DNA of 64,000 bases from Eubacteriales bacterium (GCA_045602385.1 JAZSBL010000023.1:34598-98597), one strand, 5' to 3'; positions 13,688 through 37,824 are shown, numbered from the stretch's first letter. The notes: generated by a model not told the origin, from the sequence alone. A program made the numbers and translations.

Positions 13688-13746
13688 AAGGATTACTTGC
13701 TTGCTTCTTCGATAGCAACTGCAACAGCAACGGTCATACCAACCAT
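13688..13746 (-). repeat. direct repeat copy A: displaced copy of the last 17 codons, stop and 8 nt of the GGGtGRT gene
   Basis: 55/59 nt identical to 14995-15053. Encodes MVGMTVAVAVAIEEASK*. All 4 differences are third-codon-position synonymous changes. Confidence 0.9.
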
Positions 13747-13749
13747 AAA

Positions 13750-13992
13750 TTATTTTATTTCTTGCTCCAAATTATCAAAAAGAGGAGATGTGAAGAAGTC
13801 GAGAATGGTAATCTCCAATCCGTCGCAGATTTTTTGAACGGTTGAGACCGTGGTTGTAGCATTGGGTCTGCTAATAACGTTATTCAAGGTCGACTGCGTG
13901 ATACCGCAGATAGTGGATAGCTTATTCAAAGTAATATTGTTTTGTTGACACAACTCCAAAATACGCAACTTCACCGCTTCGTTAACTCTCAT
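13750..13992 (-). CDS. XRE-family helix-turn-helix transcriptional regulator (80 aa)
   Basis: ITLNKLSTICGITQSTLNNVISRPN is an HTH_3-like segment. Paralog of 48070-48312 (shared ...CDGL.I....FF.....LEQEIK C-terminus). Confidence 0.85.
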   Translation of the reverse strand: MRVNEAVKLRILELCQQNNITLNKLSTICGITQSTLNNVISRPNATTTVSTVQKICDGLEITILDFFTSPLFDNLEQEIK

Positions 13993-14003
13993 TTCGCTCT
14001 CCT

Positions 14004-14114
14004 AACTCAAATGGGTTAACTATATTTTACCCCATAAAAAGACAAAAAATTACCCTTTTAGGGTTGACAAACTCAAAAGGGTGTGTTATAATGGCAACAT
14101 AACTCAAAAGAGTT
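14004..14114. promoter_or_regulatory. divergent switch region: three operator-like repeats plus a consensus promoter
   Basis: AACTCAAATGGGTT (14004-14017), AACTCAAAAGGGTG (14070-14083) and the palindromic AACTCAAAAGAGTT (14101-14114). TTGACA (14064-14069), 17 nt, TATAAT (14087-14092) faces the + genes, with O2 filling the spacer. Confidence 0.65.
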
Positions 14115-14145
14115 AACTTAAACTATCTTTCCGGAGGAGAATCAA

Positions 14146-14286
14146 ATGTCAAAACAAATCACATTTAACCACAATGATCAGGAACTGATCAAACAAATTG
14201 AGGAATTTCAAAAATCGAGTGGACTACCATCCTTCATATCTGCTGTGCGAAAGCTTTGCGCGGATGCTCTTCAACTTAAAAAATAA
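14146..14286 (+). CDS. 46-aa protein, function unknown (Cro/antirepressor position in the switch)
   Basis: Below ORF-track cut-off. SD GGAGGAG 6 nt upstream of ATG 14146. Translation MSKQITFNHNDQELIKQIEEFQKSSGLPSFISAVRKLCADALQLKK. Confidence 0.5.
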   Translation: MSKQITFNHNDQELIKQIEEFQKSSGLPSFISAVRKLCADALQLKK

Positions 14287-14308
14287 CAAAATAATTGGAG
14301 GAAATGAA

Positions 14309-14875
14309 ATGAAAAAGCATTTTAAACTATTGTCTTTAGTATTGTCTTTTGTTGTTGTTTTATGTTCAATATCATTTACTTCTTGCGTATCTGAAGAAGA
14401 AACGAAAACAGCACTGACTTTAGAAAATGTAGAAGATTATTTGACTATTAATGATGAAATATTAGATTATAATATTGATGTAGAATATGATTCCATCTAT
14501 GGACTCCGCATTCCAAATTATGATGATAGCTACGGAAAAGCACAAATTGTCATAAATAAAAAATCATCCAATTTGAGTTTTGAAGATGTTGAACTTAAAT
14601 TAAGGGTATCTGTGGACGCTAACAATCCATATCCATGGCAATTCAAGAACAACAATTCCGTTGAAAATTATGAGTATAACGGCAAGGTATATAAAGATAT
14701 GCTCGAAAACTGCACTTATCTTAATTTAACAATACCATATACAGGTGAATATTCCAAAGATTTAGACTTAATAATTGGTCGAAACCAAGACAGCAAATCT
14801 TTACTCGACACAAGCGACTTAAAATCCCTATCAATAAAAATTATCAGTGTTAGCGGATATGTCATAGAAGAATAA
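14309..14875 (+). CDS. lipoprotein, function unknown
   Basis: MKKHFKLLSLVLSFVVVLCSISFTSC has a lipobox (FTSC). SD TGGAGGAAA. Start moved from track 14198 to ATG 14309. Very AT-rich codon usage relative to neighbours. Confidence 0.75.
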   Translation: MKKHFKLLSLVLSFVVVLCSISFTSCVSEEETKTALTLENVEDYLTINDEILDYNIDVEYDSIYGLRIPNYDDSYGKAQIVINKKSSNLSFEDVELKLRVSVDANNPYPWQFKNNNSVENYEYNGKVYKDMLENCTYLNLTIPYTGEYSKDLDLIIGRNQDSKSLLDTSDLKSLSIKIISVSGYVIEE

Positions 14876-14880
14876 TAGAC

Positions 14881-14913
14881 AAAAAGCAGAAACCAGCACG
14901 GTTTCTGCTTTTT
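14881..14913 (+). terminator. intrinsic terminator
   Basis: AAAAAGCAGAAACC-agca-CGGTTTCTGCTTTTT. Confidence 0.85.
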
Positions 14914-14994
14914 AATTAAATTAAGATTTTTCAAAAGCATCCTTACCTAGTCCGCGGATGACCGATGGTCTCCCCTACGAAACCATTATAAATT

Positions 14995-15053
14995 AAGGAT
15001 TACTTGCTTGCCTCTTCGATAGCAACAGCAACCGCAACGGTCATACCGACCAT
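14995..15053 (-). repeat. direct repeat copy B (functional 3' end of the GGGtGRT gene)
   Basis: See 13688-13746. This copy is contiguous with the intact CDS. Confidence 0.9.
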
Positions 15054-15998
15054 GGGGTTGTTACCTGCGCCGATAAGTCCCATCATCTCTACGTGTGCGG
15101 GAACGGAGGAGGAGCCTGCGAACTGTGCGTCGGAGTGCATTCTTCCCATTGTGTCCGTCATACCGTAGCTGGAGGGGCCTGCAGCCATGTTATCGGGGTG
15201 AAGTGTACGGCCTGTTCCGCCGCCCGATGCAACAGAGAAGTAGCTTACGCCGTTCTCAACTGCCCACTTCTTATATGTTCCTGCAACGGGATGCTGGAAG
15301 CGTGTGGGGTTGGTGGAGTTACCTGTAATGGAAACGCCAACGTTCTCAAGCTTCATGATAGCAACGCCCTCGGGAACGTTGTCAGAGCCGTAGCATCTTA
15401 CGTCTGCTCTGGGACCCTTGGAGAAGGGAACCTCGCGAACGATAGTAACTTCCTCTGTGTAGGGATCAAACTTTGTCTCTACGTATGTGAAGCCGTTGAT
15501 TCTGGAAATTATGTAAGCTGCGTCCTTACCAAGACCGTTGAGGATAACGCGGAGGGGCTTTACGCGAACCTTGTTTGCGTTAAGTGCGATCTTGATCGCG
15601 CCCTCTGCAGCCGCAAAGGACTCGTGGCCGGCGAGGAAGCAGAAGCACTCTGTCTCCTCGGAAAGAAGCATCTTGCCGAGATTACCGTGGCCGAGACCAA
15701 CCTTTCTGTTCTCTGCAACAGAACCGGGAATGCAGAAGGACTGAAGACCGATACCGATAGCGGCAGCGGCGTCAGCAGCCTTTGTGCAGCCCTTCTTGAT
15801 TGCGATAGCTGCGCCTACTGTGTATGCCCACTTTGCGTTCTCAAAGCAGATGGGCTGTGTTTCCTCGACGATCTTGTAGGGATCGATGCCCTTAGCATCG
15901 CAGATCTCCTTGCACTCGTCGATGGAGTTGATACCGAATTCCTTAAGAGCGGCGAGTATTTTCGCTTCTCTTCTTTCGTAACCTTCAAACTTAGCCAT
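15000..15998 (-). CDS. GGGtGRT-family protein (uncharacterised conserved family)
   Basis: 332 aa containing the eponymous motif SGGGTGRTLHPDN. SD AAGGAGG. Confidence 0.85.
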   Translation of the reverse strand: MAKFEGYERREAKILAALKEFGINSIDECKEICDAKGIDPYKIVEETQPICFENAKWAYTVGAAIAIKKGCTKAADAAAAIGIGLQSFCIPGSVAENRKVGLGHGNLGKMLLSEETECFCFLAGHESFAAAEGAIKIALNANKVRVKPLRVILNGLGKDAAYIISRINGFTYVETKFDPYTEEVTIVREVPFSKGPRADVRCYGSDNVPEGVAIMKLENVGVSITGNSTNPTRFQHPVAGTYKKWAVENGVSYFSVASGGGTGRTLHPDNMAAGPSSYGMTDTMGRMHSDAQFAGSSSVPAHVEMMGLIGAGNNPMVGMTVAVAVAIEEASK

Positions 15999-16016
15999 TA
16001 TACTCTACCTCCTTAA

Positions 16017-16730
16017 TTATTCCTTGCGGGGATCAATGTACTTTGCAGCGTCATTGAATCTACCGTATGTACCCTTAGCCTTCTCATATGCCTCGTTGGG
16101 CTCCATGCCCTTCTTGATCATATCGGTCATCTTGCCGAGGGATACGAACTCATAACCGATAACCTCGTTGTTCTCGTCAAGAGCCATTCTTGTGCAGTAG
16201 CCCTCTGTCATCTCAAGGTATCTTACGCCCTTTTCCTTGGTGGCGTACATTGTACCTACCATGCTTCGCTCACCCTTACCGAGGTCTTCCATACCAGCGC
16301 CGATTACAAGGCCGCCCTCAGAGAATGCGGACTGGCTTCTTCCGTAAACGATCTGGAGGAAGAGCTCACGCATTGCTGTATTGATAGCGTCGCAAACGAG
16401 GTCTGTGTTAAGCGCCTCAAGAATTGTCTTGCCGGGGAGGATCTCTGCCGCCATTGCTGCAGAGTGAGTCATACCGGAGCATCCGATAGTCTCAACCAAT
16501 GCTTCCTCAATGATACCGTTCTTAACGTTAAGAGAAAGCTTACAAGCGCCCTGCTGAGGTGCGCACCAGCCTACACCGTGTGTGTATGCGGAAATGTCTG
16601 TAATCTGCTTTGCCTGAACCCACTTGCCCTCTTCCGGGATAGGAGCGGGACCGTGATCGCAACCCTTTTGAACCTTGCACATGTGCTGAACTTCGAGGCT
16701 CTGTGCATAAGGAAATTCACTTACGTTCAT
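16017..16730 (-). CDS. NifU/IscU-like Fe-S scaffold-domain protein
   Basis: GACKLSLNVKNGIIEEALVETIGCSGMTHSAAMAAEILPGKTILEAL aligns by eye with IscU (CGD..KL...IEDA.F.T.GCGSAIASSS...GK...EA). SD AAAGGAGA. Only 18 nt upstream of the GGGtGRT gene. Confidence 0.8.
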   Translation of the reverse strand: MNVSEFPYAQSLEVQHMCKVQKGCDHGPAPIPEEGKWVQAKQITDISAYTHGVGWCAPQQGACKLSLNVKNGIIEEALVETIGCSGMTHSAAMAAEILPGKTILEALNTDLVCDAINTAMRELFLQIVYGRSQSAFSEGGLVIGAGMEDLGKGERSMVGTMYATKEKGVRYLEMTEGYCTRMALDENNEVIGYEFVSLGKMTDMIKKGMEPNEAYEKAKGTYGRFNDAAKYIDPRKE

Positions 16731-17044
16731 GTTTTATTTCTCCTTTTGAAGTTGATCTCAGACCGGCTAAAATTTCCCAAATGCGTCAGTTGCTATATGC
16801 AGGCAAGCCTGCATGGCGAGTTTGCTTCGCAACCTATTCGCCCTCGAGTGCAGCTTGACGTAGGGAACTACGTCTGCGCTTTGCCCTCTCCGGTGCGCCT
16901 TGCCTTTGAAAATTTCATCTCGGTCTTTTGTTTGTACTATTTAGTATTTGCTTCACCGTCGAGGAACGGACTATGGATTTAATCATTATTCCACACGATT
17001 GTGAAGTTTCTTTGCCTACTTTCTTTTCAAAGAAAGTAGGGAGC
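16731..17044 (-). promoter_or_regulatory. 314-nt structured spacer/leader between pduL and the NifU-like gene
   Basis: Minus-strand RNA contains CCUACUUUCUUU-GAAA-AGAAAGUAGG directly after the pduL stop, GACGUAG-UUCC-CUACGUC, GGCGA..(UUGC-GAA-GCAA)..UCGCC, and AUGCAGG-CUUG-CCUGCAU. No U-tract terminator. Confidence 0.35.
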
Positions 17045-17620
17045 TTACTTAATGATCTCGCCGTAAACCTCGCCGAATGCGCAAGCTGCGTTGCACTCGT
17101 CGGTATCGATATGCATAGCGAAGGCGTACGCGTCGGAAACGCGGCAAACTACGTCGTCAAAGATAGTAGTTCTGTCGCTGTCGATCTTAACCTTAACGAT
17201 CTGCTTATCTGCGATACCCATCTCGTTTGCGGTAGCGGTATCAAAGTGAATATGGCGCTTTGCGATGATGCAGCCCTCGGAAATATCAAACTCACCCGCG
17301 GGGCCTACCATTTTAACACCGGGAGTGCCTGCAACGTCACCGGATTCACGAACCGGAACGGCCTTAAGACCGAGAACGCGCGCATCGGTAAAGGAAAGCT
17401 CTACCTGATTTGCCTTTCTCGTAGGACCGAGAACCGAAAGCATAAGCTCGCCCTTAGGACCAACGACCTTGATCTTATCGTTAGCTGCAGCGAACTGATC
17501 GGGCTGGGAGAGCATCTTCTTGGGCTCGAGCTTTGCGCCCTCACCGTAAAGAGCCGCAACAGCCTCATCTGTCAAGTGAATGTGTCTTGCGCTTGTTTCA
17601 ACAAGAACCTTTTTTGACAT
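17045..17620 (-). CDS. pduL: phosphate propanoyl/acetyl-transferase PduL
   Basis: VETSARHIHLTDE...IIAKRHIHFD...AMHIDTDE are the duplicated PduL signature segments. 191 aa. Confidence 0.88.
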   Translation of the reverse strand: MSKKVLVETSARHIHLTDEAVAALYGEGAKLEPKKMLSQPDQFAAANDKIKVVGPKGELMLSVLGPTRKANQVELSFTDARVLGLKAVPVRESGDVAGTPGVKMVGPAGEFDISEGCIIAKRHIHFDTATANEMGIADKQIVKVKIDSDRTTIFDDVVCRVSDAYAFAMHIDTDECNAACAFGEVYGEIIK

Positions 17621-17803
17621 AGTTGTTACCTCACTTTATATTGTTTTTTTAAATTTTTTCGTCAACAGGGCATAGTTACCCCATTCGGATACATTATATC
17701 ACTTTTTTCGTGCTTTGTAAAGATTATTTTTGAATAAATGTATAAGATTAGATGCAATTTTTCTTGGCAATACTTATAAACAACGAAGTTCGTGGAGAAA
17801 AAT

Positions 17804-18499
17804 ATGGATAACGAGAAAAGAGATACAAAAAAAGAGGAGAATATTGACAAGATAGAGGAGATAAGCGAGAGCGGCGGCATAACCGCAAGGGGCGGGGGAG
17901 TGAACATTCACTGCCTTTCTATCATAGGCCAGATAGAGGGGCACTACATGCTGCCTGAGGGGCAAAAGGCTACGAAATACGAGCATATAATCCCGATGCT
18001 TGTATCTGTCGAGCAGGACGAGGAGATAGACGGGCTTTTAGTCCTTCTCAACACGATGGGCGGTGACGTTGAGGCGGGGCTGGCGATTGCAGAGGTCATC
18101 GCATCAATGACAAAGCCTACTGTGTCGGTGGTGCTTGGCGGCGGTCACTCGATAGGCGTGCCGCTTGCGGTGTCGGGCAAGCGCTCCTTTATCGTGCCGA
18201 GCGCGACTATGATGATACATCCCGTCAGAATGAACGGGCTTGTCGTCGGTGTTCCGCAGAGCTTTACCTATTTTAAGGAAATGCAGAGGCGGATTGTTGA
18301 TTTTATCTGCACACACAGCAGGGCAAATCCAAACAAGATCGAGGAGCTTATGATGCGCCCCGACATGCTTGCTACCGACGTTGGCTCAATAATTGAGGGC
18401 AGAGAAGCGGTGGAATACGGTATAATCGACGAGGTGGGCGGGCTTGACCGCGCGCTGGAGTGTTTGCGAGAGATGATAAAGGAGCAATCAAGCAAATGA
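17804..18499 (+). CDS. ClpP-fold serine protease paralog, TepA-like
   Basis: IIGQIEGH...LLNTMGGDVEAGLAIAEVI...GGGHSIGVPLAV...MMIHPVR resembles the B. subtilis TepA (YmfB) family. Start moved to ATG 17804 (SD GGAG 7 nt upstream). Confidence 0.8.
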   Translation: MDNEKRDTKKEENIDKIEEISESGGITARGGGVNIHCLSIIGQIEGHYMLPEGQKATKYEHIIPMLVSVEQDEEIDGLLVLLNTMGGDVEAGLAIAEVIASMTKPTVSVVLGGGHSIGVPLAVSGKRSFIVPSATMMIHPVRMNGLVVGVPQSFTYFKEMQRRIVDFICTHSRANPNKIEELMMRPDMLATDVGSIIEGREAVEYGIIDEVGGLDRALECLREMIKEQSSK

Positions 18500-28409: not shown

Positions 28410-28961
28410 TTATTCTGCAGCGGGTGCTTCTGCTTCTGCAGGAGCTTCCTCTGCGGGTGCTGCTTCTCCATCCTTGTCGATGATAGCCTGGAGAGCATAA
28501 GCAAAGTTGTAGATAGGAGACTTGATAGAGCCGAGGAACTTTGCGATGAGAACTTCCTTGGAAGGAATGTCTGCAAGTGCGTTAACACCTGTCGCGTCCA
28601 TTACCTCACCGTCGCAATAGCCTGCGAGAATCTCAAAGGACTCGATCTTAGATGCGTATTCCTTGAGGATCTTTGCAGGAGCGATCGGATCTTCAGGCGT
28701 GCTGATAGCGATAGCTGTCATACCGTTGAGGTACTGCTTCATATCGCCGTAGCCGCACATTTCGCATGCTCTTCCTGTGAGGGTGTTCTTCATAACTACG
28801 TACTTAACACCTGCTTCACGGAGAGCCTTACGGAGTGCTGTGTCATTCTCAACGGTGATACCCTGATAATTGACAACTACACCGGCGGCGCTTGCCTTAA
28901 TCTGCTCTGCGGGGTCTGCAACTACCTGTTTTTTCTGTTCGAGTATTGCATTACTAGGCAT
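28410..28961 (-). CDS. rplJ: 50S ribosomal protein L10 (with A/E/P-rich C-terminal tail)
   Basis: 183 aa. NYQGITVENDTALRKALREAGVKYVVMKNTL. Immediately upstream of rplL. Confidence 0.94.
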   Translation of the reverse strand: MPSNAILEQKKQVVADPAEQIKASAAGVVVNYQGITVENDTALRKALREAGVKYVVMKNTLTGRACEMCGYGDMKQYLNGMTAIAISTPEDPIAPAKILKEYASKIESFEILAGYCDGEVMDATGVNALADIPSKEVLIAKFLGSIKSPIYNFAYALQAIIDKDGEAAPAEEAPAEAEAPAAE

Positions 28962-29149
28962 TTGATTTAACCTCCCGTGTTAAAGAATTAAAAAAACTTT
29001 CTTCCCGACGGCTCGACACTCTGAACCGGGAAAGAAAGCACACAAAAAGCCTTTCGGCAAGTATTTGATTTAACTTTCTCCTCGGCAGGGTGGCTTGCGC
29101 TTTTACGGGAACCTGCTGTCTTTGGATAATGCCGACTATGTCGGCTGAC
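28962..29149 (-). promoter_or_regulatory. rplJL leader with internal attenuator terminator (L10-leader type)
   Basis: Hairpin GCCGAC-auag-UCGGC near the 5' end. CUUUCUUUCCCGG...CCGUCGGGAAGAAAG followed by UUUUUUUAAUU (28990-29039) about 30 nt before the SD GGGAGG. L10(L12)4-controlled attenuation of this operon is known in B. subtilis. Confidence 0.55.
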
Positions 29150-29155
29150 TTTGGT

Positions 29156-29184
29156 ATTATACAACATAAAAAAGGTTTTGTCAA
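29156..29184 (-). promoter_or_regulatory. consensus promoter of rplJL
   Basis: TTGACA (29184-29179), 17 nt, TATAAT (29161-29156). Confidence 0.7.
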
Positions 29185-29223
29185 TAGGTTTTTGAAAAGT
29201 TTTTTGAAAATATTTTGATAGGT

Positions 29224-29440
29224 GTTACTTTCCTGTCAGCAGCAACAGGAAAGTAACCAAAGGGAATGCCGCTCAAGGTGGAGGAGTGCTTAAAAATCGA
29301 CGGCGTTGACGCCGATTTTACGCAATCTCCTCCCCCTTAAGAATCCCCCACCTCTGCTCGCCTCTGGCGAGAACGGTGAAGTGTGTTTTAAGGATATCGT
29401 CTTTGAAATGCCGGAGGTGGCACTGTACAGTGGGGTGAAT
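29224..29440. other. orphan highly structured intergenic segment (strand undetermined)
   Basis: 13-bp perfect hairpin GTTACTTTCCTGT-cagcagca-ACAGGAAAGTAAC (29224-29257). A 64-nt extended hairpin AAGGTGGAGGAG...CTCCTCCCCCTT (29275-29338) is capped by AAATCGACGGCG-ttga-CGCCGATTT. CTCGCC-tct-GGCGAG. CCACCTC (29348) / GAGGTGG (29414). Confidence 0.4.
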
Positions 29441-29442
29441 AG

Positions 29443-29475
29443 GAAAACAAAACGGCGACCTTGTTGGTCGCCGTT
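29443..29475 (-). terminator. terminator of the HTH regulator gene
   Basis: Minus-strand AACGGCGACCA-acaa-GGUCGCCGUU followed by UUGUUUU. Confidence 0.8.
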
Positions 29476-29497
29476 CTCTGCTTTTGCAAAATGAAAT

Positions 29498-30055
29498 TTA
29501 AAATTTGTTGTTCTTTATTATGTTTTCCGCCAGTTTTACCAGCTTTTCGCGGATCCACATGGGCTCGACAATTTTAAAGTCGGAGCGGAGTGTGATAAGC
29601 ACGCTCAAAAACTGCTCCACGTTATGGAACTCGCATATGTACTTGTTTCGGGGCTCTCTTGAAATGATGAAGTTCTTTAAGGAAAGCACCGAGAGCTTGT
29701 CCGCAATCTCAATGGTTGCGGTGTAGGGTATCTGCATCTGCACGAAGGTGTTCTCGGCCTGGAGTGATGCGCCCGCCATGTTGTCCGCAAGCTCGGACAG
29801 AGAATCGTCGTTGTCGCTTGACATAACGAGGGGGAGAGAATACTGCTCGGTATAATAATAGCCCTTGTGCTCGAGGCTGTACTCAAGCGGTGCTCCGAGC
29901 TTTTTCTTAAGGTAGTCTACGTCGCGCTGCGCCTGACGGTGGGATATATTGAAACGCTCGGCAAGTCGCATAGCGTTAGGGTAGTAGAGATTTGCTGTTT
30001 TTTTGTGAAGCCATTGTATCCTTGTGTTCGCAGAACTTTGGGATGAGGTTTTCAT
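29498..30055 (-). CDS. HTH-domain transcriptional regulator (YafY/DeoR-like N-terminal wHTH, unassigned C-terminal domain)
   Basis: AMRLAERFNISHRQAQRDVDYLKKKLGAPLEY is wHTH-like. Start moved to ATG 30055 (MKTSSQ). Confidence 0.65.
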   Translation of the reverse strand: MKTSSQSSANTRIQWLHKKTANLYYPNAMRLAERFNISHRQAQRDVDYLKKKLGAPLEYSLEHKGYYYTEQYSLPLVMSSDNDDSLSELADNMAGASLQAENTFVQMQIPYTATIEIADKLSVLSLKNFIISREPRNKYICEFHNVEQFLSVLITLRSDFKIVEPMWIREKLVKLAENIIKNNKF

Positions 30056-30086
30056 TTTTTGCAAATTCCTTTCATTTTATTATATA

Positions 30087-31085
30087 TTACGTATTGATCT
30101 CGACATCGCTGTTTGGCAGGGAAAGGGAAATTGATATGATCTCTGCTATAGAGTTGACCGCGTAGCATGCGTAGAAAACGCTCAGCACGAGATATATCTC
30201 CGGGAAAAGGTTGAATCCGCGGGCGAATACCGTGAACGTCAATCCCGCGCAGATAAGGCAGAGCGAGGATGCGACGGATTTCAGGGAAATAAACCATGCC
30301 GCGTTGATACGATCAAGAGTTGCTCTTGCGTCGGCGATGGTGCCGAGGATGAGCGCGACGCCGCCAAACTGGGCCGCGAGCTTGAACGGACTGTTCAGCT
30401 CTATTTCAAAGTCGAGATACAAGAGTCCTATTATAGCTGTGCCGAGCGCGAACACTCCGATGGCGCAGAGTATCTTGAACACCTCTTTGCTATTGAGCAT
30501 TTGGAGAATGAAGAAGACGGCCGCTGCAATTGAGAGGAGCAAGATCGCGTCTCCCCATTTTCCCAGATCGTTCATCAGGGTGTGGTATGCAAGATAAACC
30601 GAAGCTGCAAGCGGGAGAAGCGAGCCCCAGCTTGTTCTTGATACAGAATTGCCCACATTTTTGCGCGAGAGGAATATAGCGCAGATAAGGGGGATCAGCA
30701 CCGCTGCAGCGGCGGTTACCGTGAGCGCGACGTCTGAGGGCTTAGTGAGATATTTGGTATTTATATCGCAACCGAGCGCTATTATTGCGGCGATAACTCC
30801 CGCTACTATTGGAAGCGCGGAGCAAATTATACCTATCGCCATACGCGCGGTTTTGCTTATCATGGGCATCGGTGTCGGGGCATCTTCGATGATTTCCGGC
30901 TGCTCCGGCTCTGCGGCGTCGGCATCGATTTCAGGCTCGCACTGTTGTGCGATCTGCTCACTGTCCGCTTCTGTCTGTTCTGTTGTTTCAAGTGTTAGAT
31001 CATCCGTTTCTGTGATCCGGTCGAACGTCTGATCTGTCGGCTGATCCTGATTCGGCTCGTTCTCTCTGATCTCTGACAAATCCAT
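30087..31085 (-). CDS. polytopic membrane protein with acidic N-terminal tail, function unknown
   Basis: 332 aa. SD AAAGGAGGGG. About 70-aa D/E/Q-rich N-terminus, then about 7 hydrophobic segments. Confidence 0.7.
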   Translation of the reverse strand: MDLSEIRENEPNQDQPTDQTFDRITETDDLTLETTEQTEADSEQIAQQCEPEIDADAAEPEQPEIIEDAPTPMPMISKTARMAIGIICSALPIVAGVIAAIIALGCDINTKYLTKPSDVALTVTAAAAVLIPLICAIFLSRKNVGNSVSRTSWGSLLPLAASVYLAYHTLMNDLGKWGDAILLLSIAAAVFFILQMLNSKEVFKILCAIGVFALGTAIIGLLYLDFEIELNSPFKLAAQFGGVALILGTIADARATLDRINAAWFISLKSVASSLCLICAGLTFTVFARGFNLFPEIYLVLSVFYACYAVNSIAEIISISLSLPNSDVEINT

Positions 31086-31440
31086 ATTGCCCCTCCTTTA
31101 TCCGAATATTTGTGTAAAAATACACATTCCTACAACTATTATACTACCAAATTGTTAACGGCAAATAGACAAAACAAACAATTTGCCGAAAATTTAAGCA
31201 AATAAGCGTAAAAGATTGGTGCGCGAGGGAGCATTTCGGGGAGGGAAAATGCATGCAAAGTCTTCCTTTTATTATATATTTATTGCATGCGGGGCTTTTG
31301 GGGGCGTTTTTATGCGGCGAGATATGCGGTCGGGGGCAGAGGTCGGCGGGTTTATTGCGTTGGTTAAAATGCACAAAAAGCTTGCCGAAACCTTGTTGAA
31401 AATTTTGTTATATTTTTTATTATATATTGAAAAATTTTTC

Positions 31441-31469
31441 TTGACAAATGGCGATAAATATAGTATAAT
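31441..31469 (+). promoter_or_regulatory. consensus promoter of the S10 operon with AT-rich UP-like region
   Basis: TTGACA (31441-31446), 17 nt, TATAAT (31464-31469). Preceded by about 50 nt of A/T tracts. Confidence 0.75.
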
Positions 31470-31475
31470 TATCTC

Positions 31476-31790
31476 TGCTTGATATGCGATGAAGCGAGAG
31501 GTTGCTCTTAAGGGGACGCTCTTAAGAGGTAATTTTCGTGGAGTATGTCCGTATGAACGGGCGACGTAGTCTTTCATACACACACTAAGCAACATGCGGC
31601 ATAGTGGTGCTTGAGTGTTCAAAACCCTTGTATTTACTCGGAATTTGTCTGTCAGATGCTGATGCGGGCAAGGTCCGTATTTTAATGTAAGGGGGTAGGA
31701 ACACGCGGCACGGTGTACGAGAGCGCGCCCCACTTTAAAAGGCTTTTGAAATTTCCGCAAGAGCCCAATTTTGAAAGGAGGCACAATTCA
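31476..31790 (+). promoter_or_regulatory. ~315-nt S10-operon 5' leader
   Basis: Long untranslated leader containing the hairpin CTCTTAAG-gggacgct-CTTAAGAG and other stems. r-protein (L4-type) autoregulation of S10 leaders is established in other bacteria, not shown here. Confidence 0.45.
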
Positions 31791-32102
31791 ATGGCAGTTA
31801 ATGAGAAGATCAGAGTTCGTCTTAAGAGCTACGACCACACCCTTGTTGATGCAGCTGCAGAGAAGATTGTTACCGTTGCTAAAGCAAACGGTTCTGAGGT
31901 TTCGGGTCCTATTCCGCTTCCCACAGAGAGAGAGATCGTTACAATTCTCCGCGCAGTTCACAAGTACAAGGATGCTCGTGAGCAGTTCGAGATGAGAACT
32001 CACAAGAGACTTATCGACATCGTAAAGCCCAATCAGAAGACGATTGACGCTCTTATGAATGTTGAGCTCCCCGCAGGCGTTGAGATCGAGGTTAAGATCT
32101 AA
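31791..32102 (+). CDS. rpsJ: 30S ribosomal protein S10
   Basis: [27 protein letters not shown]... Start moved to ATG 31791 (SD GAAAGGAGG). Confidence 0.96.
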
Positions 32103-32282
32103 ACCCTACATTATTAATAACTTATCAAGCAATGCGGGAAACCGCAAACAAAGACAACAGCCGGCGGCTGAAGGTCAAGCGGACCGAAAGGAACGCGCGA
32201 CAGACGCTGTGACGGTAACTTTGTAAGTCATGTTGGGCGGAGAATTCCGACTCAACCAATAATTTACAGGAGGAAAACAAAA

Positions 32283-32912
32283 ATGAAAAAGGGAATTATC
32301 GGTAAGAAAATCGGTATGACTCAGATCTTCGATGAAAAGGGCAATGTCATCCCTGTAACAGTCATCGAAGCAGGTCCCTGTGTAGTAGCACAGAAGAAGA
32401 CCGCAGAAAAAGACGGTTATGACGCCGTTCAGCTTGGTTTCCAGGATGCAAAGGAAAAGCACCTGACAAAGGCTGAGAAAGGTCGCTTTGAGAAGGCAGG
32501 AGTTGCTCTTAAGAGACACCTTAAGGAATTCCGTCTTGATGATTGCAGCGCAATAAACGTTGGCGACGTCATTACAGCCGATACCTTCGCCGCAGGCGAC
32601 AAGGTCGACGTAACAGGTATGACAAAGGGCCGCGGATTTACAGGCTGTGTTAAGAGATGGAACCACAGAATACTCCGCATGACTCACGGTACAGGTCCTA
32701 TCCACCGTCAGCCCGGTTCTATGGGTGTTATCGACCCCGCTAGAATCTTCAAGAACAAGAAGATGCCCGGTCAGTACGGTAATGAGCAGGTTACAGTACA
32801 GAATTTGAAAGTTGTAAAGATCGACGCAGAGAAGAACCTCATCGCAGTTAAGGGCGCAGTTCCCGGTGCGAAGGACGGAATCCTCTTCATCCGCGACTCG
32901 GTCAAAGCATAA
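32283..32912 (+). CDS. rplC: 50S ribosomal protein L3
   Basis: [33 protein letters not shown]... Confidence 0.97.
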
Positions 32913-32932
32913 TCGGAAGGAGGAAATAAACA

Positions 32933-33556
32933 ATGCCCGCAATTAAAGTTGTAAATATGTCCGGCGCAGAAGTCGGCACAATGGAGCTTTCGGATGTTCT
33001 TTTCGGAGCTGAAGTAAACGGTGCAGTCCTCCACGCTGCAGTAAGAGCTTACCTTCTCAATCAGAGACAGGGTACACAGTCCACTCTTACTCGTTCCGAG
33101 GTTTCCGGTGGCGGTAGAAAGCCCTGGAGACAGAAGGGTACAGGTCGCGCACGTCAGGGCTCGACACGTTCTCCTCAGTGGACACACGGTGGTATCGCTC
33201 TTGGTCCTAAGCCCAGAAGCTACCGCACAAATCTCAACAAGAAGACAAAGAGACTTGCTCTTATCAGTGCTCTCACAGATAAGTTCAACAACGGTAAGCT
33301 CATTATCGTTGATGACATCAAGCTCGAGTCTTACAAGACAAAGACCATGGTTGACATGTTCAAGGCACTCTCCGCTGAGAGAAAGCCCCTCGTTGTTCTT
33401 CCTGAGGTCGATCAGTTCGTAGTAAAGAGCTGCGCTAACATCCCCGGCGCTAAGACTTGCCTCTACAACACAATCAACGTATACGATATCTTGAATGCTG
33501 ATACATTCATCACTACCGTTGCGGCAGTTAAAATGCTCGAGGAGGTATATGCATAA
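32933..33556 (+). CDS. rplD: 50S ribosomal protein L4
   Basis: GGGRKPWRQKGTGRARQGSTRSPQW motif. Operon order. Confidence 0.97.
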   Translation: MPAIKVVNMSGAEVGTMELSDVLFGAEVNGAVLHAAVRAYLLNQRQGTQSTLTRSEVSGGGRKPWRQKGTGRARQGSTRSPQWTHGGIALGPKPRSYRTNLNKKTKRLALISALTDKFNNGKLIIVDDIKLESYKTKTMVDMFKALSAERKPLVVLPEVDQFVVKSCANIPGAKTCLYNTINVYDILNADTFITTVAAVKMLEEVYA

Positions 33557-33852
33557 TGAGAATGCTCGAAGACGTTATTATTAAGCCCGTAATCTCCGAG
33601 GCTTCCATGGATATGGCTGCTCAGAGAAAGTACGTTTTCAAGGTAGCTAAGACTGCTGATAAGGCTGAGATAGCTTCTGCAGTTGAGGCTATGTTCCCCG
33701 GCACTAAGGTTGAGGCCGTTAACACAATCAATATGAAGAGAAAGCCCAAGAGATACGGTGTGCACTTCGGTTACACAACCGCTTGGAAGAAGGCAATCGT
33801 TACTTTGACTGCTGACTCCAAGACCATCGAGTTCTTCGAAGGCATGAACTAA
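33556..33852 (+). CDS. rplW: 50S ribosomal protein L23
   Basis: [17 protein letters not shown]... TAATG overlap with rplD. Confidence 0.95.
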
Positions 33853-33869
33853 GAGGGAGGTCGAATAGA

Positions 33870-34706
33870 ATGGCTACATTAAAGTATAAACCTACGACAC
33901 CCGCGAGAAGACACATGTCCGTTCCGGTTTACAAGGACATCATCACTAAGGACACTCCCGAGAAGAGCCTTGTAGTAATCAAGAAGAAGCACGCGGGCCG
34001 TAACAGCTACGGACGTATCACAGTTCGCCACAGAGGAGGCGGAAACAAGGTTAAGTACAGAATCATCGACTTCAAGAGACTTTCTACAGTTCCCGCAGAG
34101 GTCGTTGCAATCGAGTACGACCCCAACAGAACAGCTTACATCGCTCTTCTTCAGAACGATGAGGGCGTAAAGAGCTACATCGTAGCTCCCGAAGGCCTTA
34201 AGGTAGGCGACAAGGTTTACTCCGGCGCAGATGCCGACATTAAGCCCGGTAACGCTCTCCCCTTGGCTAACATTCCTGTTGGTACTTTCATCAACAACAT
34301 CGAAATTCACCCCGGTAAGGGCGGACAGCTCGTTCGTTCCGCAGGTACCATGGCTCAGCTCCTTTCCAAGGAAGCAAACGGCATGGCACAGGTAAGACTT
34401 CCTTCCGGTGAAGTTCGCTACGTTCCCCTTAACTGCAAGGCAGTTATCGGACAGATCGGCAACATCGACCACGACACTGTTAAGGTTGGTAAGGCCGGTA
34501 AGACAAGACACAAGGGCATTCGTCCTACAGTCCGCGGTTCCGTTATGAACCCCTGCGATCACCCCCACGGTGGTGGTGAAGGTAAGTCTCCCATCGGTCA
34601 TGCTAATCCTATGACTCCTTGGGGTAAGCCTGCTCTCGGTCTTAAGACCAGAAACAAGAAGGCTCGCACAAACAAGTTCATCGTAAAACGCAGAAACGCT
34701 AAATAA
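33870..34706 (+). CDS. rplB: 50S ribosomal protein L2
   Basis: [38 protein letters not shown]. Confidence 0.98.
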
Positions 34707-34720
34707 GGAGGGAATATAAA

Positions 34721-35002
34721 ATGAGCAGAAGCTTGAAAAAAGCGCCTTTCGTTGAAGAAAAGCTCTATACTCGTATATGTGCTATGAACGAAAAGGGCGA
34801 GAAGAAAGTTATTAAGACTTGGTCCCGTGCATCAACTATATTCCCGGAATTTGTCGGTCATACAGTTGCTGTTTACGACGGAAGAAAGCACGTTCCGGTT
34901 TATGTCGTTGAAGATATGGTAGGTCACAAGCTCGGTGAGTTTGCTCCTACAAGAACCTTCAAGGGTCACGCCGGTTCCAAGACATCCAACAACGGTAAGT
35001 AA
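34721..35002 (+). CDS. rpsS: 30S ribosomal protein S19
   Basis: [15 protein letters not shown]...[14 protein letters not shown]...[13 protein letters not shown]. Confidence 0.97.
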
Positions 35003-35020
35003 TCAGGAGGAAAGTAGAAA

Positions 35021-35356
35021 ATGGAAGCAAAAGCATATCTTAAATATGCGAGAATTTCCCCTCGTAAGGTTAAGATCGTTCTCGACCTCATCAGAGGTAA
35101 GGATGCAGGAATGGCAATGGCTATCCTCAAGAACACCAACAAAGGTGCTTGCGAATACCTTATAAAGCTTTTGGGAAGTGCAATCGCAAATGCAGAAAAT
35201 AATTTCCACATGGATTCTACAAAGCTCTACGTTTCCGAGTGCTTCGTAACACCCGGCCCCACGCTCAAGCGCATCATGCCTAGAGCTAAGGGAAGCGCAG
35301 ACAGAATCCTTAAGAGAACCAGCCACGTTACTATCGTGGTTAAGGAAAGAGACTAA
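35021..35356 (+). CDS. rplV: 50S ribosomal protein L22
   Basis: [27 protein letters not shown]... Confidence 0.96.
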
Positions 35357-35373
35357 GAAAGGAGACAAGAGTA

Positions 35374-36165
35374 ATGGGTCAGAAAGTTAATCCCCACGGC
35401 CTCAGAGTAGGCGTTATAAAGAACTGGGATTCAAGATGGTTCGCAAAAGACGAAGTTTTCGGCGACACTCTTGTATCCGACTACAACATCAGAAAGTATC
35501 TCAAGGGTGAGCTTCAGGACGCAGGCGTTCCGAAGATCGAGATCGAGCGTGACAGCCGTCGCGTAAGAGTATTCATCCACTGCGCTAAGCCCGGTATGGT
35601 TATCGGTAAGGGCGGAGTTGAGATCGAAAAGTATAAGGCAGAGCTCGAGAAGATGGTTCAGATGCCCGTTTCCCTCAACGTTGTTGAGGTAAGACAGCCC
35701 GACCTCGACGCACAGCTCGTAGCTGAGAGCGTTTGCGCTCAGCTCGAAAAGCGCGTTTCCTTCCGTCGTGCAATGAAGATGGCGATGAGAAACACTATGA
35801 GACTTGGTGCAAAGGGTATCAAGATCATGTGCTCCGGCCGTCTTGGCGGCGCAGAGATCGCAAGAAGCGAGACATACCACGAGGGTACAATCCCGCTTCA
35901 GACACTCAGAGCTGACATTGAGTACGGCTTCTGGGAGGCAAACACCACCTACGGTAAGATAGGTGTTAAGGTTTGGATCTACAGAGGTGAGGTCCTCAAC
36001 GAAGTTAACCGTCCTGCACAGAACGGTGAACGCAGAGACCGCAGAGGCGACCGTAAGCCCTCCGGTGACAGACGCGACAACCGCAGAGGCGGCAACCGCC
36101 CTCAGGGTCGCGGAGACAGAGCTCCCAGAGCTGACAGAACACCCAGAGACGGAGGTGCTAAGTAA
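35374..36165 (+). CDS. rpsC: 30S ribosomal protein S3 (with ~50-aa R/G/D-rich C-terminal extension)
   Basis: [24 protein letters not shown]..., KH and S3-C domains. The tail is [52 protein letters not shown]. Confidence 0.97.
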
Positions 36166-36587
36166 TGTTAATGCCTAAAAGAGTAAAATTCCGCCGCGTA
36201 CAGCGCGGAAGACTCAAGGGTAAGGCTAGCCGCGGTAACACAGTTACCCAGGGTAACTACGGCCTTATGGCACTTGAGCCCGCTTGGATCACAAGCAATC
36301 AGATCGAGGCAGCCCGTATCGCTATGACACGTTACATCAAGCGTGGCGGTAAGGTCTGGATCAAGATATTCCCCGACAAGCCTATCACAGAGAAGCCTGC
36401 TGAGACTCGAATGGGTTCCGGTAAGGGTTCGCCCGAATACTGGGTAGCTGTTGTTAAGCCCGGTCGTGTAATGTTCGAAATGGACGGCGTAAGTGAGGAG
36501 ATCGCTCGCGAGGCTATGCGTCTTGCAAGCCACAAGCTCCCCATCAAGACAAAGTTCGTTAAAAAAGAAGAAGTAGAGGAGGCATAA
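36165..36587 (+). CDS. rplP: 50S ribosomal protein L16
   Basis: [21 protein letters not shown]... TAATG overlap with rpsC. Confidence 0.97.
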
Positions 36588-36591
36588 GCTC

Positions 36592-36780
36592 ATGAAAATA
36601 GCTGAAATTAGAAAAATGACAGTTGAAGAGCTCAACGCAAAGCTTGTTGAACTCAAGAAAGAGCTTTTCAACCTCCGTTTCCAGCACGCAGTAAATCAGC
36701 TTGAGAACCCTCACAAGATGACAGAGGTTAAGCATGATATCGCTCGCGTAATGACCGTTCTCAACGAGAAGAACGCATAA
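36592..36780 (+). CDS. rpmC: 50S ribosomal protein L29
   Basis: [33 protein letters not shown]... Confidence 0.95.
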
Positions 36781-36790
36781 GGAGGCAGTC

Positions 36791-37051
36791 ATGACAGAAG
36801 AAAGAACACTCAGAAAAGTCAGAGTCGGCATGGTTGTCAGCGACAAGATGGACAAGACAGTAGTCGTAGCTATCGAGGACAACGTAAAGCACCCCGTATA
36901 CGGCAAGATCATCAAGCGCACACTTAAGGTTCACGCTCACGATGAGAGCAACGAGTGCGGTGTTGGCGACAAAGTTAGAATTATGGAAACAAGACCCCTC
37001 TCCAAGACAAAGAGATGGAGAGTTGTTGAAGTAATCGAAAAGGCAAAATAA
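36791..37051 (+). CDS. rpsQ: 30S ribosomal protein S17
   Basis: [32 protein letters not shown]... Confidence 0.96.
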
Positions 37052-37108
37052 TTGAATTCGAATAGTAGGTACGTTGAAGCGTACGCGAAACAGTAGGAGG
37101 AAAAAACA

Positions 37109-37477: not shown

Positions 37478-37491
37478 GGAGGTAACGTACA

Positions 37492-37809: not shown

Positions 37810-37824
37810 GGAGGGTAAACGGAA

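What the first reader, a model, noticed from the sequence alone, without database searches (positions are those of the whole stretch)
15000..17620. pduL / NifU-like scaffold / GGGtGRT protein: an uncharacterised conserved gene set
A PduL phosphotransacylase gene is followed on the same strand by a tightly coupled pair with an 18-nt gap. The first member is a 237-aa protein with an IscU/NifU-like Cys-containing scaffold fold. The second is a 332-aa member of the GGGtGRT family (motif SGGGTGRTLHPDN). To my knowledge no biochemical function has been assigned to that family. Pairing an Fe-S-scaffold-like protein with a protein bearing a glycine-rich, phosphate/nucleotide-loop-like motif, next to an enzyme that makes acyl phosphates, suggests an unrecognised redox or acyl-phosphate-linked activity. 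The pair also serves as an integration target (see the 59-bp repeat).
Basis: partly seen in the sequence, partly recalled or inferred. Interest (0 to 1): 0.6.

Follow-up and report, generated by a model that had tools for sequence, protein, structure and literature searches.

The report
Unknown glycolysis-linked iron-sulfur gene pair
A two-gene operon (a four-cysteine IscU-like protein plus the uncharacterised 'GGGtGRT' protein) is about as conserved and codon-optimised as ribosomal proteins in gut and rumen anaerobes yet has no known function, and its gene neighbourhoods point to the enolase step of glycolysis, a step for which many rumen and gut bacteria have no known gene.

Summary
On the minus strand lie pduL (17045-17620), a 237-aa IscU-like gene (16017-16730) and a 332-aa GGGtGRT gene (15000-15998), with an 18-nt gap between the last two.

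The real unit is the two-gene pair. It was adjacent in 154 of 154 testable loci from several bacterial phyla, and a separate look-up found it in a methanogen. The four cysteines of the IscU-like protein and the GGGTGRT loop are near-invariant. The pduL linkage is local synteny (13 of 160 loci).

No function is published: papers up to 2026 call the family uncharacterised. GGGtGRT has a confident predicted structure with no match among solved structures. In this window the pair has ribosomal-protein-level codon adaptation. It is abundant in proteomes and is repressed by iron limitation.

The new lead is context. A divergent clade always sits beside apgM-type phosphoglycerate mutase (6 of 6). In one Oscillospiraceae lineage the operon is pgk-tpiA-gpmI-nifU-like-GGGtGRT, so the pair occupies the usual enolase position.

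Enolase-negative Prevotella brevis expresses both proteins abundantly.

My best reading is an Fe-S-dependent enolase analogue, or another lower-glycolysis enzyme. This is circumstantial and directly testable.

The parts
15000..15998 (-). GGGtGRT protein gene (332 aa). Proposed catalytic, phosphate-binding alpha/beta subunit.
   Evidence: PF14057 E=7.6e-191. AF2 pLDDT 86.8, pTM 0.88. No PDB relative by sequence or fold. Lowest Nc (31.0) and highest CAI (0.754) in the window.
16017..16730 (-). IscU/NifU-like protein gene (237 aa). It has an IscU-fold core (~45-129), four near-invariant Cys (C56, C63, C84, C113), and conserved N- and C-terminal extensions.
   Evidence: PF01592 21.7 bits. hhalign against E. 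coli IscU: probability 86%. Foldseek matches IscU/SufU. Cys invariance in ~175 loci. CAI 0.722.
15999..16016 (-). 18-nt spacer between the two genes of the pair, consistent with co-transcription.
   Evidence: Median spacer is 18 nt in 77 loci.
17045..17620 (-). pduL-type phosphotransacylase gene (191 aa). It is a highly expressed fermentation gene and a lineage-specific neighbour, not part of the conserved unit.
   Evidence: PF06130 E=7.8e-71; NF011652 above cutoff. Adjacent in 13/160 loci. CAI 0.663.
16745..17040 (-). Strain-polymorphic ~270-nt insertion in the pduL/nifU-like intergenic region. It begins with a terminator-like hairpin after pduL and folds stably.
   Evidence: Absent in conspecific contigs L162 and L163, where the gap is ~40 nt; present in L161. 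MFE -91.5 kcal/mol, z=-4.07. No Rfam match. Not a dispersed repeat.
17693..17721 (-). Sigma-70-like promoter match upstream of pduL (TTTACA-17-TATAAT with a TG extension).
   Evidence: This is a consensus match only.
14995..15053 (.). 59-bp repeat copy covering the last 54 nt of the GGGtGRT gene plus 5 nt beyond its stop. Junction of the inserted cassette.
13688..13746 (.). Second copy of the 59-bp repeat (93% identical), at the other end of the inserted cassette.
13747..14994 (.). 1.25-kb foreign cassette between the repeats. It holds an XRE-type HTH gene (13750-13992, minus strand) and a lipoprotein-like ORF (14198-14875, plus strand).
   Evidence: Pfam HTH_26/HTH_3. CAI 0.31 and 0.26; GC3 of the lipoprotein-like ORF 0.29. 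Conspecific contigs carry different cargo at the same site.
14880..14914 (-). Terminator-like hairpin 85 nt downstream of the GGGtGRT stop codon, inside the cassette.

Best explanation
The NifU-like and GGGtGRT genes encode the two subunits of one abundant, iron-dependent enzyme of lower glycolysis in anaerobes.

Shown:
- The pair is an obligate, co-oriented, tightly spaced operon.
- It evolves very slowly and has ribosomal-protein-level codon adaptation.

Inferred:
- The IscU-fold subunit uses its four near-invariant cysteines to hold a permanent Fe-S cluster.
- The GGGtGRT subunit has a helical N-domain and an alpha/beta domain. Its invariant Gly/Ser/Thr/His/Asp loops (AGHES, NGLGKD, TGNSTNP, SGGGTGRTLHPD) sit at strand ends in the secondary-structure map of the model. 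I infer that it binds a phosphorylated three-carbon acid.

Proposed reaction: dehydration of 2-phosphoglycerate to phosphoenolpyruvate. This would make it an Fe-S hydro-lyase analogue of enolase, with an iron of the cluster activating the C3 hydroxyl and a conserved His, Asp or Glu abstracting the C2 proton. It would act as an iron-replete isozyme where enolase is present and as the only enzyme in enolase-negative bacteria.

pduL is simply another highly expressed fermentation gene that lies next to the pair in this lineage.

My confidence by layer:
- Obligate two-subunit complex: ~0.9.
- Fe-S enzyme rather than assembly scaffold: ~0.7.
- Acts in or next to lower glycolysis: ~0.6.
- Specifically the enolase reaction: ~0.35-0.4.
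For: Pairing:
- 77/77 genome loci and 77/77 metagenome loci; median spacer 18 nt.

Conserved residues:
- C56 174/174, C63 173/174, C84 175/175, C113 177/177.
- The GGGTGRT..H..D motif is invariant in ~167 loci, including the divergent clade, Vibrio, Persicobacter and a methanogen.

Folds:
- The NifU-like core has an IscU fold.
- GGGtGRT gives a confident model of a helical domain plus an alpha/beta domain. The invariant loop 261-281 is unmodelled, as expected for a ligand or partner site.

Expression:
- CAI 0.754 and 0.722, against 0.70-0.78 for the window's own ribosomal proteins.
- Abundant in gut and rumen proteomes.

Iron response:
- In B. thetaiotaomicron, BT0173-74 falls 11-13x under iron limitation, while metal-independent gpmA/fsa rises 15-24x.
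- Both proteins rise with iron in C. pasteurianum.

Genetic link to glycolysis:
- Transposon insertions in BT0173-4 came from the same screen as pfkA for loss of glucose repression of Cur.

Gene context:
- Divergent clade: 6/6 members sit with apgM (NF003104 equivalog, above cutoff) and a His_Phos_1 gene. L177 also has gpmI.
- Main family: L074 and L103 read pgk-tpiA-gpmI-nifU-like-GGGtGRT on one strand with gaps of 9-307 nt. That is the position of eno in the classical gap-pgk-tpi-pgm-eno operon of Bacillus and Clostridium (my own knowledge).
- L044 has gpmI 2 kb away.
- No enolase homologue was found in 1.78 Mb of loci.

The open gap:
- Enolase is missing in most Butyrivibrio, two Pseudobutyrivibrio, P. 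brevis GA33 and S. copri strains. A 2024 review still lists this as unresolved.
- Butyrivibrio, Pseudobutyrivibrio and S. copri carry GGGtGRT. For P. brevis GA33, see the next point.
- In enolase-negative P. brevis GA33, both proteins are in the cell-extract proteome at the level of L3 and DnaK, with 79-100% sequence coverage.
Against: - There is no biochemical evidence for Fe-S binding or for any activity.
- In most loci the pair has no glycolytic neighbour.
- L074 and L103 are one lineage (82% nt identity), so the 'eno slot' is essentially one evolutionary event. That operon also lacks gap, so the pair could replace another step.
- Most carriers, including B. thetaiotaomicron, also have canonical enolase (my own knowledge). 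Co-occurrence with enolase-negative taxa is therefore weakly discriminating, because the pair is nearly ubiquitous in gut anaerobes.
- Four conserved cysteines suggest a fully ligated electron-transfer cluster. Hydro-lyases typically use three Cys and a free iron.
- The divergent cassette also holds phosphatase-type genes and a ~320-aa membrane protein, which plain glycolysis does not explain.
- The NifU-like structure model is poor (pLDDT 57).
- No homology to enolase or to any known hydro-lyase was found.
Confidence: 0.4

Rival explanations
1. The complex catalyses a different reaction on or next to phosphoglycerates. Examples: a ferredoxin-linked oxidation that produces 3-phosphoglycerate (a GAPDH/PGK bypass), oxidation of 3-phosphoglycerate toward serine or cysteine, or an accessory or metallochaperone role for the phosphoglycerate mutases.
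For: - The same PGM-centred contexts apply.
- The L074 operon lacks gap as well as eno.
- A four-Cys cluster fits electron transfer.
- C202 of GGGtGRT is almost invariant (174/176) and could act as a catalytic thiol.
- The divergent cassette contains phosphatases (His_Phos_1 closest to CobC/PspA/GpmB; a HAD in L188).
Against: - No flavin, NAD or pterin domain was detected.
- The papers I read report enolase-negative fermenters; none reported a gap- or pgk-negative one.
- Ribosomal-level abundance is unusual for a chaperone.
- The pair follows gpmI rather than preceding pgk.
Confidence: 0.25
2. The pair is a specialised Fe-S cluster assembly, storage or delivery system. The NifU-like protein is a scaffold and GGGtGRT is its carrier or chaperone.
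For: - IscU-fold core with the central Cys motif retained.
- Databases annotate it as a NifU/Fe-S scaffold.
- The extreme conservation resembles that of IscU.
- The iron responsiveness would fit a storage role.
Against: - No cysteine desulfurase, and no third conserved gene of any kind, in 160 loci.
- The canonical first Cys-Gly-Asp motif is replaced by a CX6C motif, and no counterpart of the labile Asp ligand was identified, which suggests a stable cluster.
- It scores far below the curated IscU, NifU and SufU cutoffs.
- Assembly systems are usually induced by iron limitation, not repressed 12-fold (the comparison is my own knowledge).
- Ribosomal-protein-level expression.
- B. thetaiotaomicron transposon mutants grow normally.
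Confidence: 0.12
3. The pair is a self-contained redox or stress-protection protein of anaerobes, in the manner of rubrerythrin or hybrid-cluster protein, unrelated to glycolysis.
For: - A compact two-gene module present across phyla, in a methanogen and on Vibrio and Persicobacter secondary replicons. This suggests horizontal spread.
- Abundant, iron-dependent and dispensable in vitro.
- Listed beside rubrerythrins in the chicken-gut in vivo proteome paper.
Against: - It does not explain the repeated association with three kinds of phosphoglycerate mutase or the pgk-tpi-gpmI operon.
- No neighbouring oxidative-stress genes. One rubredoxin in the methanogen locus is the only hint.
Confidence: 0.1
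4. One reading: pduL, the NifU-like gene and GGGtGRT form one functional set with an acyl-phosphate-linked activity.
For: - In conspecific contigs pduL lies only ~40 nt upstream of the pair.
- pduL appears in two arrangements: upstream in the window's clade and downstream in L065.
- All three genes are highly codon-adapted.
Against: - pduL is adjacent in only 13/160 loci. In 12 of them (NifU-like 80-97% identical) it lies upstream; L065 has it downstream.
- In L001, L005 and L036 another gene lies between them.
- In this window a terminator-like hairpin and a 270-nt insertion separate them.
- Bacteroidota, Lachnospiraceae, Erysipelotrichales, Vibrio and the archaeal locus lack the linkage.
Confidence: 0.05

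Closest known systems
Enolase (Eno, EC 4.2.1.11; Pfam PF03952/PF00113)
   Same: Proposed to catalyse the same reaction. The pair occupies enolase's usual operon position after gpmI. It has glycolytic-enzyme-level conservation and expression.
   Different: No sequence or fold relationship. Two subunits instead of one. Presumed Fe-S rather than Mg2+ chemistry. Repressed by iron limitation.
IscU / NifU N-domain / SufU Fe-S scaffold proteins
   Same: The core of the 237-aa protein has the IscU fold, and the central GC(S/G)G cysteine aligns (C84 with IscU C63).
   Different: The first ligand motif is remodelled to C56-X6-C63, and no counterpart of the labile Asp or of His105 was identified. The loop before the last Cys is deleted. 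There are extra conserved N-terminal (~45 aa) and C-terminal (~105 aa) regions. It is never next to a cysteine desulfurase. It scores below curated cutoffs.
Two-subunit [4Fe-4S] hydro-lyases (class I fumarase, L-tartrate dehydratase TtdAB, L-serine dehydratase alpha/beta), and the FumA/FumC pattern of iron-dependent and iron-independent isozymes (my own knowledge)
   Same: This is the proposed working model: alpha,beta-elimination of water with the hydroxyl bound to a cluster iron, anaerobe-typical, repressed when iron is scarce, and co-existing with a metal-cluster-free isozyme.
   Different: No homology was detected. Four rather than three conserved Cys. The cluster would sit on an IscU-fold subunit, which I know of in no characterised enzyme.
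B. thetaiotaomicron BT0173-BT0174 and C. pasteurianum F502_05012/F502_05017 (homologous gene pairs, likely orthologues, mentioned in omics papers)
   Same: The same gene pair, with the same order and sizes. Bacteroides proteins are 75-76% identical to the window's proteins.
   Different: Only phenotypic and omics observations exist: iron-responsive expression and modest derepression of Cur in glucose. No function has been assigned.

Membership tests
GGGtGRT family (Pfam PF14057) | Full-length match above the gathering score, and the GGGTGRT motif. | tested here: met
   633.6 bits against a cutoff of 27; profile positions 1-327 of 327. Motif at residues 259-265; invariant in ~167 loci.
IscU/NifU/SufU scaffold | Score above the curated family cutoffs. 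| tested here: not met
   PF01592: 21.7 bits against 22 for the whole protein; 23.0 for the N-terminal half alone. TIGR03419 25.9 against 187.9. TIGR01999 21.7 against 192.4. TIGR01994 18.9 against 92.5.
IscU/NifU/SufU scaffold | IscU fold. | tested here: met
   Nearly all of the top 50 Foldseek PDB hits are IscU or SufU, probability mostly 0.9-1.0, TM (target) ~0.5. The model is low confidence (pLDDT 57). hhalign against E. coli IscU: probability 86%.
IscU/NifU/SufU scaffold | Canonical ligand set: Cys37-x-Asp39, Cys63, His105-Cys106. | tested here: not met
   Only C84 aligns, with IscU C63. In the alignments, IscU C37 falls on Gln and no Asp39 counterpart appears. C56 and C63 form a CX6C motif instead. 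The His-Cys loop is shortened to Val-Cys113.
IscU/NifU/SufU scaffold | Genomic association with a cysteine desulfurase (IscS/NifS/SufS). | tested here: not met
   No third gene family recurs in the 80 genome loci. The 80 metagenome loci were screened only for the window's own neighbours. The annotated neighbourhoods show no desulfurase.
IscU/NifU/SufU scaffold | Transient Fe-S cluster assembly and transfer. | not testable with these tools
   Needs anaerobic biochemistry.
PduL phosphotransacylase (PF06130 / NF011652) | Match above the curated cutoffs. | tested here: met
   PF06130 237.9 bits. NF011652 225.8 against a cutoff of 209.
PduL as a microcompartment (BMC) enzyme | Neighbouring BMC shell or pdu/eut genes. 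| tested here: not met
   The neighbours are a ClpP-like gene, an alanine symporter, an acyltransferase, an SDR and a ClC channel. The EutD BMC model scores 217 against a cutoff of 315.
Enolase superfamily | Sequence or fold homology to Eno_N/Eno_C. | tested here: not met
   No Pfam match even at E<=10. No enolase among the Foldseek hits. The claim is 'may work like enolase', not membership.
Nucleotide- or phosphate-loop families with similar Gly motifs (FtsZ/tubulin GGGTG[ST]G; MogA/MoCF GGTG), and Hcp (tested because CODH, which I recalled as sharing Hcp's domain layout, appeared among weak fold hits) | Profile-level homology. | tested here: not met
   hhalign probability 0.9% (FtsZ), 0.5% (MogA) and 0.7% (Hcp).
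Known anti-phage defence proteins (PADLOC) | Match to a defence-system model. | tested here: not met
   No hit for the window pair. No hit for the divergent cassette proteins either, apart from one weak PtuB match (E=0.0056) to the extra 304-aa ORF of L179.

The most novel reading that the evidence does not exclude
The NifU-like/GGGtGRT complex is the long-sought non-homologous enolase. It would be an oxygen-sensitive, Fe-S-dependent 2-phosphoglycerate dehydratase built on an IscU-fold subunit. It would explain how enolase-negative Butyrivibrio, Pseudobutyrivibrio, Prevotella brevis and Segatella copri complete glycolysis. It would also serve as an iron-replete isozyme in most other gut anaerobes.
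Probability: 0.35. Interest if true: 0.92.

Novelty: categorically new. Interest (0 to 1): 0.75.

Why it matters
The pair is among the most conserved and most highly expressed genes of gut and rumen anaerobes, yet it has no assigned function. Cross-phylum identity is about 75-85%, which I recall is comparable to EF-Tu.

If it is a glycolytic enzyme, textbook glycolysis in the dominant gut phyla has an unrecognised iron-dependent branch. The 15-year-old puzzle of 'missing enolase' in rumen and gut bacteria would be solved. Metabolic models of Prevotella, Butyrivibrio and Segatella could be corrected.

An IscU-fold protein serving as a permanent enzyme subunit would also be new to Fe-S biology.

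Even if the enolase idea is wrong, the phosphoglycerate-mutase contexts give the first concrete, testable substrate hypothesis for PF14057.

Tried and rejected
- Solved-structure search with the single sequence and with a 66-sequence profile found nothing for GGGtGRT.
- Pfam at E<=10 on subdomains, NCBIfam and PADLOC gave no further families.
- I looked for gene fusions. All longer 'variants' (P0001-6, P0079, P0241-P0344) are metagenome chimeras or tandem misassemblies caused by the extreme conservation.
- Clustering of neighbours in 80 genome loci showed no third family in more than about 10 loci.
- I looked for a riboswitch or leader. Rfam found nothing, and no common upstream motif was visible by eye.
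- Motif look-alikes were tested with hhalign and rejected: FtsZ GGGTGTG and MogA TTGGTG...PD. Hcp was tested too, because of weak CODH fold hits, and rejected. PFK-like motifs occur in a different order, so I rejected them by inspection.
- The structure of the NifU-like protein came out poor (pLDDT 57) because only 81-92% identical sequences were allowed in the alignment.
- The Vibrio and Persicobacter contexts were uninformative. A ClC channel near the pair in both the window and Persicobacter looks coincidental, since no ClC hits appeared in L001-L080.
Full report
**Observation.**
- pduL, 17045-17620, 191 aa: PF06130 E=7.8e-71, and NF011652 above its cutoff.
- An IscU/NifU-like protein, 16017-16730, 237 aa: PF01592 scores 21.7 bits against a gathering score of 22, matching residues 64-120 only.
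- A GGGtGRT protein, 15000-15998, 332 aa: PF14057 E=7.6e-191, with the motif SGGGTGRTLHPDN.

The last two genes are 18 nt apart. pduL lies 314 nt upstream. The 59-bp repeat (13688-13746 and 14995-15053, 93% identical) is real.

**What the conserved unit is.** I scanned one genome per GTDB species. They span Oscillospiraceae, Lachnospiraceae, Erysipelotrichales, Prevotella, Bacteroides, Alistipes, Kiritimatiellae and Syntrophorhabdus.
- The NifU-like gene is directly upstream and co-oriented in 77/77 loci that have upstream DNA. The median spacer is 18 nt.
- In the reciprocal test, 80 metagenome loci were fetched with the NifU-like protein. GGGtGRT is directly downstream in 77/77 of those with downstream DNA.
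- No third gene family recurs.
- pduL is adjacent in 13/160 loci. In 12 of them (NifU-like 80-97% identical) it lies upstream, usually with a divergent ClpP-like gene. In L065 it lies downstream.
- In L001, L005 and L036 another gene sits between pduL and the pair.
- In conspecific contigs the gap is ~40 nt. In this window and in L161 a ~270-nt insertion separates them.

The unit is therefore a two-gene operon, and the pduL linkage is local synteny.

**The proteins.** The family evolves very slowly.
- In a library clustered at 50% identity, I saw only about three full-length clusters among the 150 hits listed. The rest are fragments or chimeras.
- Bacteroidota proteins are 75-78% identical to the window's proteins. 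The closest cross-phylum pairs reach 83-87%. Families mostly cluster with their own taxa.
- AlphaFold2 gives a confident GGGtGRT model: pLDDT 86.8, pTM 0.88. It has a helical N-domain (1-112) and an alpha/beta domain.
- In the secondary-structure map of the model, the invariant loops (AGHES, NGLGKD, CYG, TGNSTNP, SGGGTGRT) come directly after beta-strands. The invariant stretch 261-281 is not confidently modelled.
- Nothing in the PDB resembles it by sequence, profile or Foldseek.
- hhalign rejects the motif look-alikes FtsZ and MogA, and also Hcp.
- The NifU-like protein has an IscU-fold core, but only its central cysteine aligns with IscU.
- The first ligand motif is replaced by C56-X6-C63, no counterpart of the labile Asp or of His105 was identified, and the last cysteine follows a shortened loop.
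- All four cysteines are near-invariant in ~175 loci (C63 is 173/174). These include the divergent clade, Vibrio, Persicobacter and a methanogen.
- The conserved N- and C-terminal extensions are modelled poorly on their own. I would expect that if they fold on the partner protein.

**Expression and physiology.**
- GGGtGRT has the strongest codon bias of 44 ORFs in the window (Nc 31.0).
- I computed CAI against the window's own ribosomal proteins (L4, L2, S3, L6, L10). GGGtGRT scores 0.754, the NifU-like gene 0.722 and pduL 0.663. These are the top three of 36 genes, within or just below the ribosomal range of 0.70-0.78.
- Proteome papers report the two proteins as abundant across gut and rumen taxa and state that the function is unknown.
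- In B. thetaiotaomicron the orthologues BT0173-74 fall 11-13-fold under iron limitation. The metal-independent fsa-gpmA operon rises 15-24-fold in the same experiment.
- In C. pasteurianum both proteins rise with iron.
- Transposon insertions in BT0173-4 were recovered, together with pfkA, in a screen for loss of glucose-dependent inhibition of the regulator Cur. The mutants grow normally.

**The context lead.** A divergent clade is ~50% identical for both proteins and retains all four cysteines.
- In all six members examined, it sits in a cassette of apgM, NifU-like, GGGtGRT, a ~320-aa membrane protein and a His_Phos_1 gene. The order is rearranged in L177 and L188.
- Its apgM passes the NCBIfam equivalog cutoff for cofactor-independent phosphoglycerate mutase.
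- L177 adds a bona fide gpmI, and L188 adds a HAD hydrolase.

In the main family:
- L074 (Candidatus Limivicinus) and L103 read pgk-tpiA-gpmI-nifU-like-GGGtGRT on one strand with gaps of 9-307 nt. Unrelated genes flank the operon.
- L044, an independent lineage, has gpmI 2 kb away.
- In the classical gap-pgk-tpi-pgm-eno operon of Bacillus and Clostridium, the gene after pgm is enolase (my own knowledge).
- No enolase homologue was found in any of the 173 sequences searched (172 loci plus the window, 1.78 Mb).

**The open question it touches.** Enolase is absent from most Butyrivibrio genomes, two Pseudobutyrivibrio, Prevotella brevis GA33 and a Segatella copri lineage.
- A 2024 review lists this as an unfilled gap. 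It notes that the methylglyoxal shunt proposed as an alternative is not fully encoded.
- Butyrivibrio, Pseudobutyrivibrio and S. copri carry GGGtGRT.
- In P. brevis GA33 the authors found enolase missing from both genome and proteome. The supplementary proteome lists GGGtGRT (T433DRAFT_01350) and the adjacent NifU homologue (T433DRAFT_01351) at the level of ribosomal protein L3 and DnaK, with 79-100% sequence coverage.

**Most likely mechanism.** I propose an obligate heteromeric Fe-S enzyme of lower glycolysis.
- The IscU-fold subunit would hold a stable cluster. The GGGtGRT subunit would bind a phosphorylated C3 acid through its Gly/Ser/Thr/His/Asp loops.
- The reaction that best fits the operon position, the enolase-negative carriers and Fe-S hydro-lyase chemistry is 2-phosphoglycerate to PEP.
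- This would parallel the FumA/FumC pattern, with the pair repressed when iron is scarce.
- Shown: the pairing, the conservation, the codon adaptation and the gene contexts.
- Taken from the literature: the iron response, the abundance and the enolase gaps.
- Inferred: Fe-S binding, complex formation, the substrate and the reaction.

**Weaknesses.**
- The 'eno slot' rests on one lineage.
- That operon also lacks gap.
- Four Cys suggest electron transfer rather than hydro-lyase chemistry.
- The pair is nearly ubiquitous, so co-occurrence with enolase-negative taxa has little discriminating power.
- Rival readings are another phosphoglycerate-linked reaction or a PGM accessory role (0.25), Fe-S assembly or storage (0.12), a stress or redox protein (0.10), and a pduL-linked acyl-phosphate activity (0.05).

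**Comparison and novelty.** The window's genes are ordinary members of a catalogued but uncharacterised family (PF14057). The pairing had been seen incidentally in B. thetaiotaomicron and C. pasteurianum.
- The GGGtGRT protein has no detectable relative of known function or structure.
- The NifU-like protein fails the defining ligand, score and context features of IscU scaffolds.
- I know of no characterised enzyme that uses an IscU-fold subunit.
- I therefore rate the system as lying outside known kinds. I stress that the functional proposal is circumstantial.

Noticed in passing
window 13688-15053; loci L009, L019, L039, L051, L079, L161-L168: The 3' end of the GGGtGRT gene is a recurrent insertion site. 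Conspecific contigs with an identical GGGtGRT protein carry different cargo just downstream: DUF2971; type I HsdR plus DUF4145; or a ~100-aa ORF followed by a duplicated 39-aa GGGtGRT C-terminus. Five other species also show a second copy of the gene's 3' end 0.1-6.7 kb downstream. Integrase-like ORFs (by sequence inspection only) follow the gene in L002 and L009. The window's cassette (an HTH gene plus a lipoprotein-like ORF) has foreign codon usage and no integrase.
   Followed up: partly
window 16745-17040 (minus strand): A ~270-nt strain-polymorphic insertion lies between pduL and the NifU-like gene. It folds far better than shuffled sequence (z=-4.07), has no Rfam match and is not repeated elsewhere. 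It could be an unrecognised leader or small RNA, or a remnant of a mobile element.
   Followed up: partly
loci L173-L190 (divergent GGGtGRT clade): A conserved cassette, usually preceded by an HTH regulator gene: apgM, NifU-like, GGGtGRT, a ~320-aa membrane protein with no detectable family, and a His_Phos_1 gene. Some members sit next to a transposase or an integrase. L179 carries an extra 304-aa membrane protein. The role of the membrane protein is unknown.
   Followed up: partly
proteins P0001-P0006, P0079, P0241-P0344: Many database 'GGGtGRT proteins' of 390-517 aa are assembly chimeras. They show internal tandem duplications or fusions to unrelated N-termini. The likely cause is near-identical DNA from different species collapsing in metagenome assemblies.
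   Followed up: yes
L182 (Methanobacteriaceae MAG); L191 (1.85-Mb replicon filed as a plasmid in Vibrio sp. THAF191d); L192 (Persicobacter pPP1): The pair also occurs in a gut methanogen with a genuinely archaeal gene context (about 76% identity to the window protein). It also occurs on large secondary replicons of marine Vibrio and Persicobacter. This implies horizontal transfer beyond strict gut anaerobes.
   Followed up: partly
L026 vs L027; L033 vs L041: A 'Collinsella' MAG contig is 99% identical in both proteins to a Clostridia MAG. An 'Alistipes onderdonkii' contig is 95% identical in GGGtGRT to a Kiritimatiellae MAG. Either the contigs are mis-binned or the transfer is very recent.
   Followed up: no
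window 17792-18499 (plus strand): A ClpP-family protein of 235 aa (PF00574; weak matches to phage head-maturation proteases) is transcribed divergently from pduL. It is syntenic with pduL in nine of the ten genome loci that carry pduL.
   Followed up: no
window 28410-43039: Ribosomal protein genes (L10, L4, L2, S3, L6) and secY lie in the window. I used the ribosomal genes as the internal reference for codon adaptation.
   Followed up: yes
L078 and L053, ~40-60 nt upstream of the NifU-like start codon: In Bacteroides and Prevotella, the region just after a TAnnTTTG-type promoter contains a short palindrome (CGATTTGAGAATCG and AATGATTTGAATCATCATT). It might be an operator for the iron-responsive regulation. 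I saw this by eye only.
   Followed up: no
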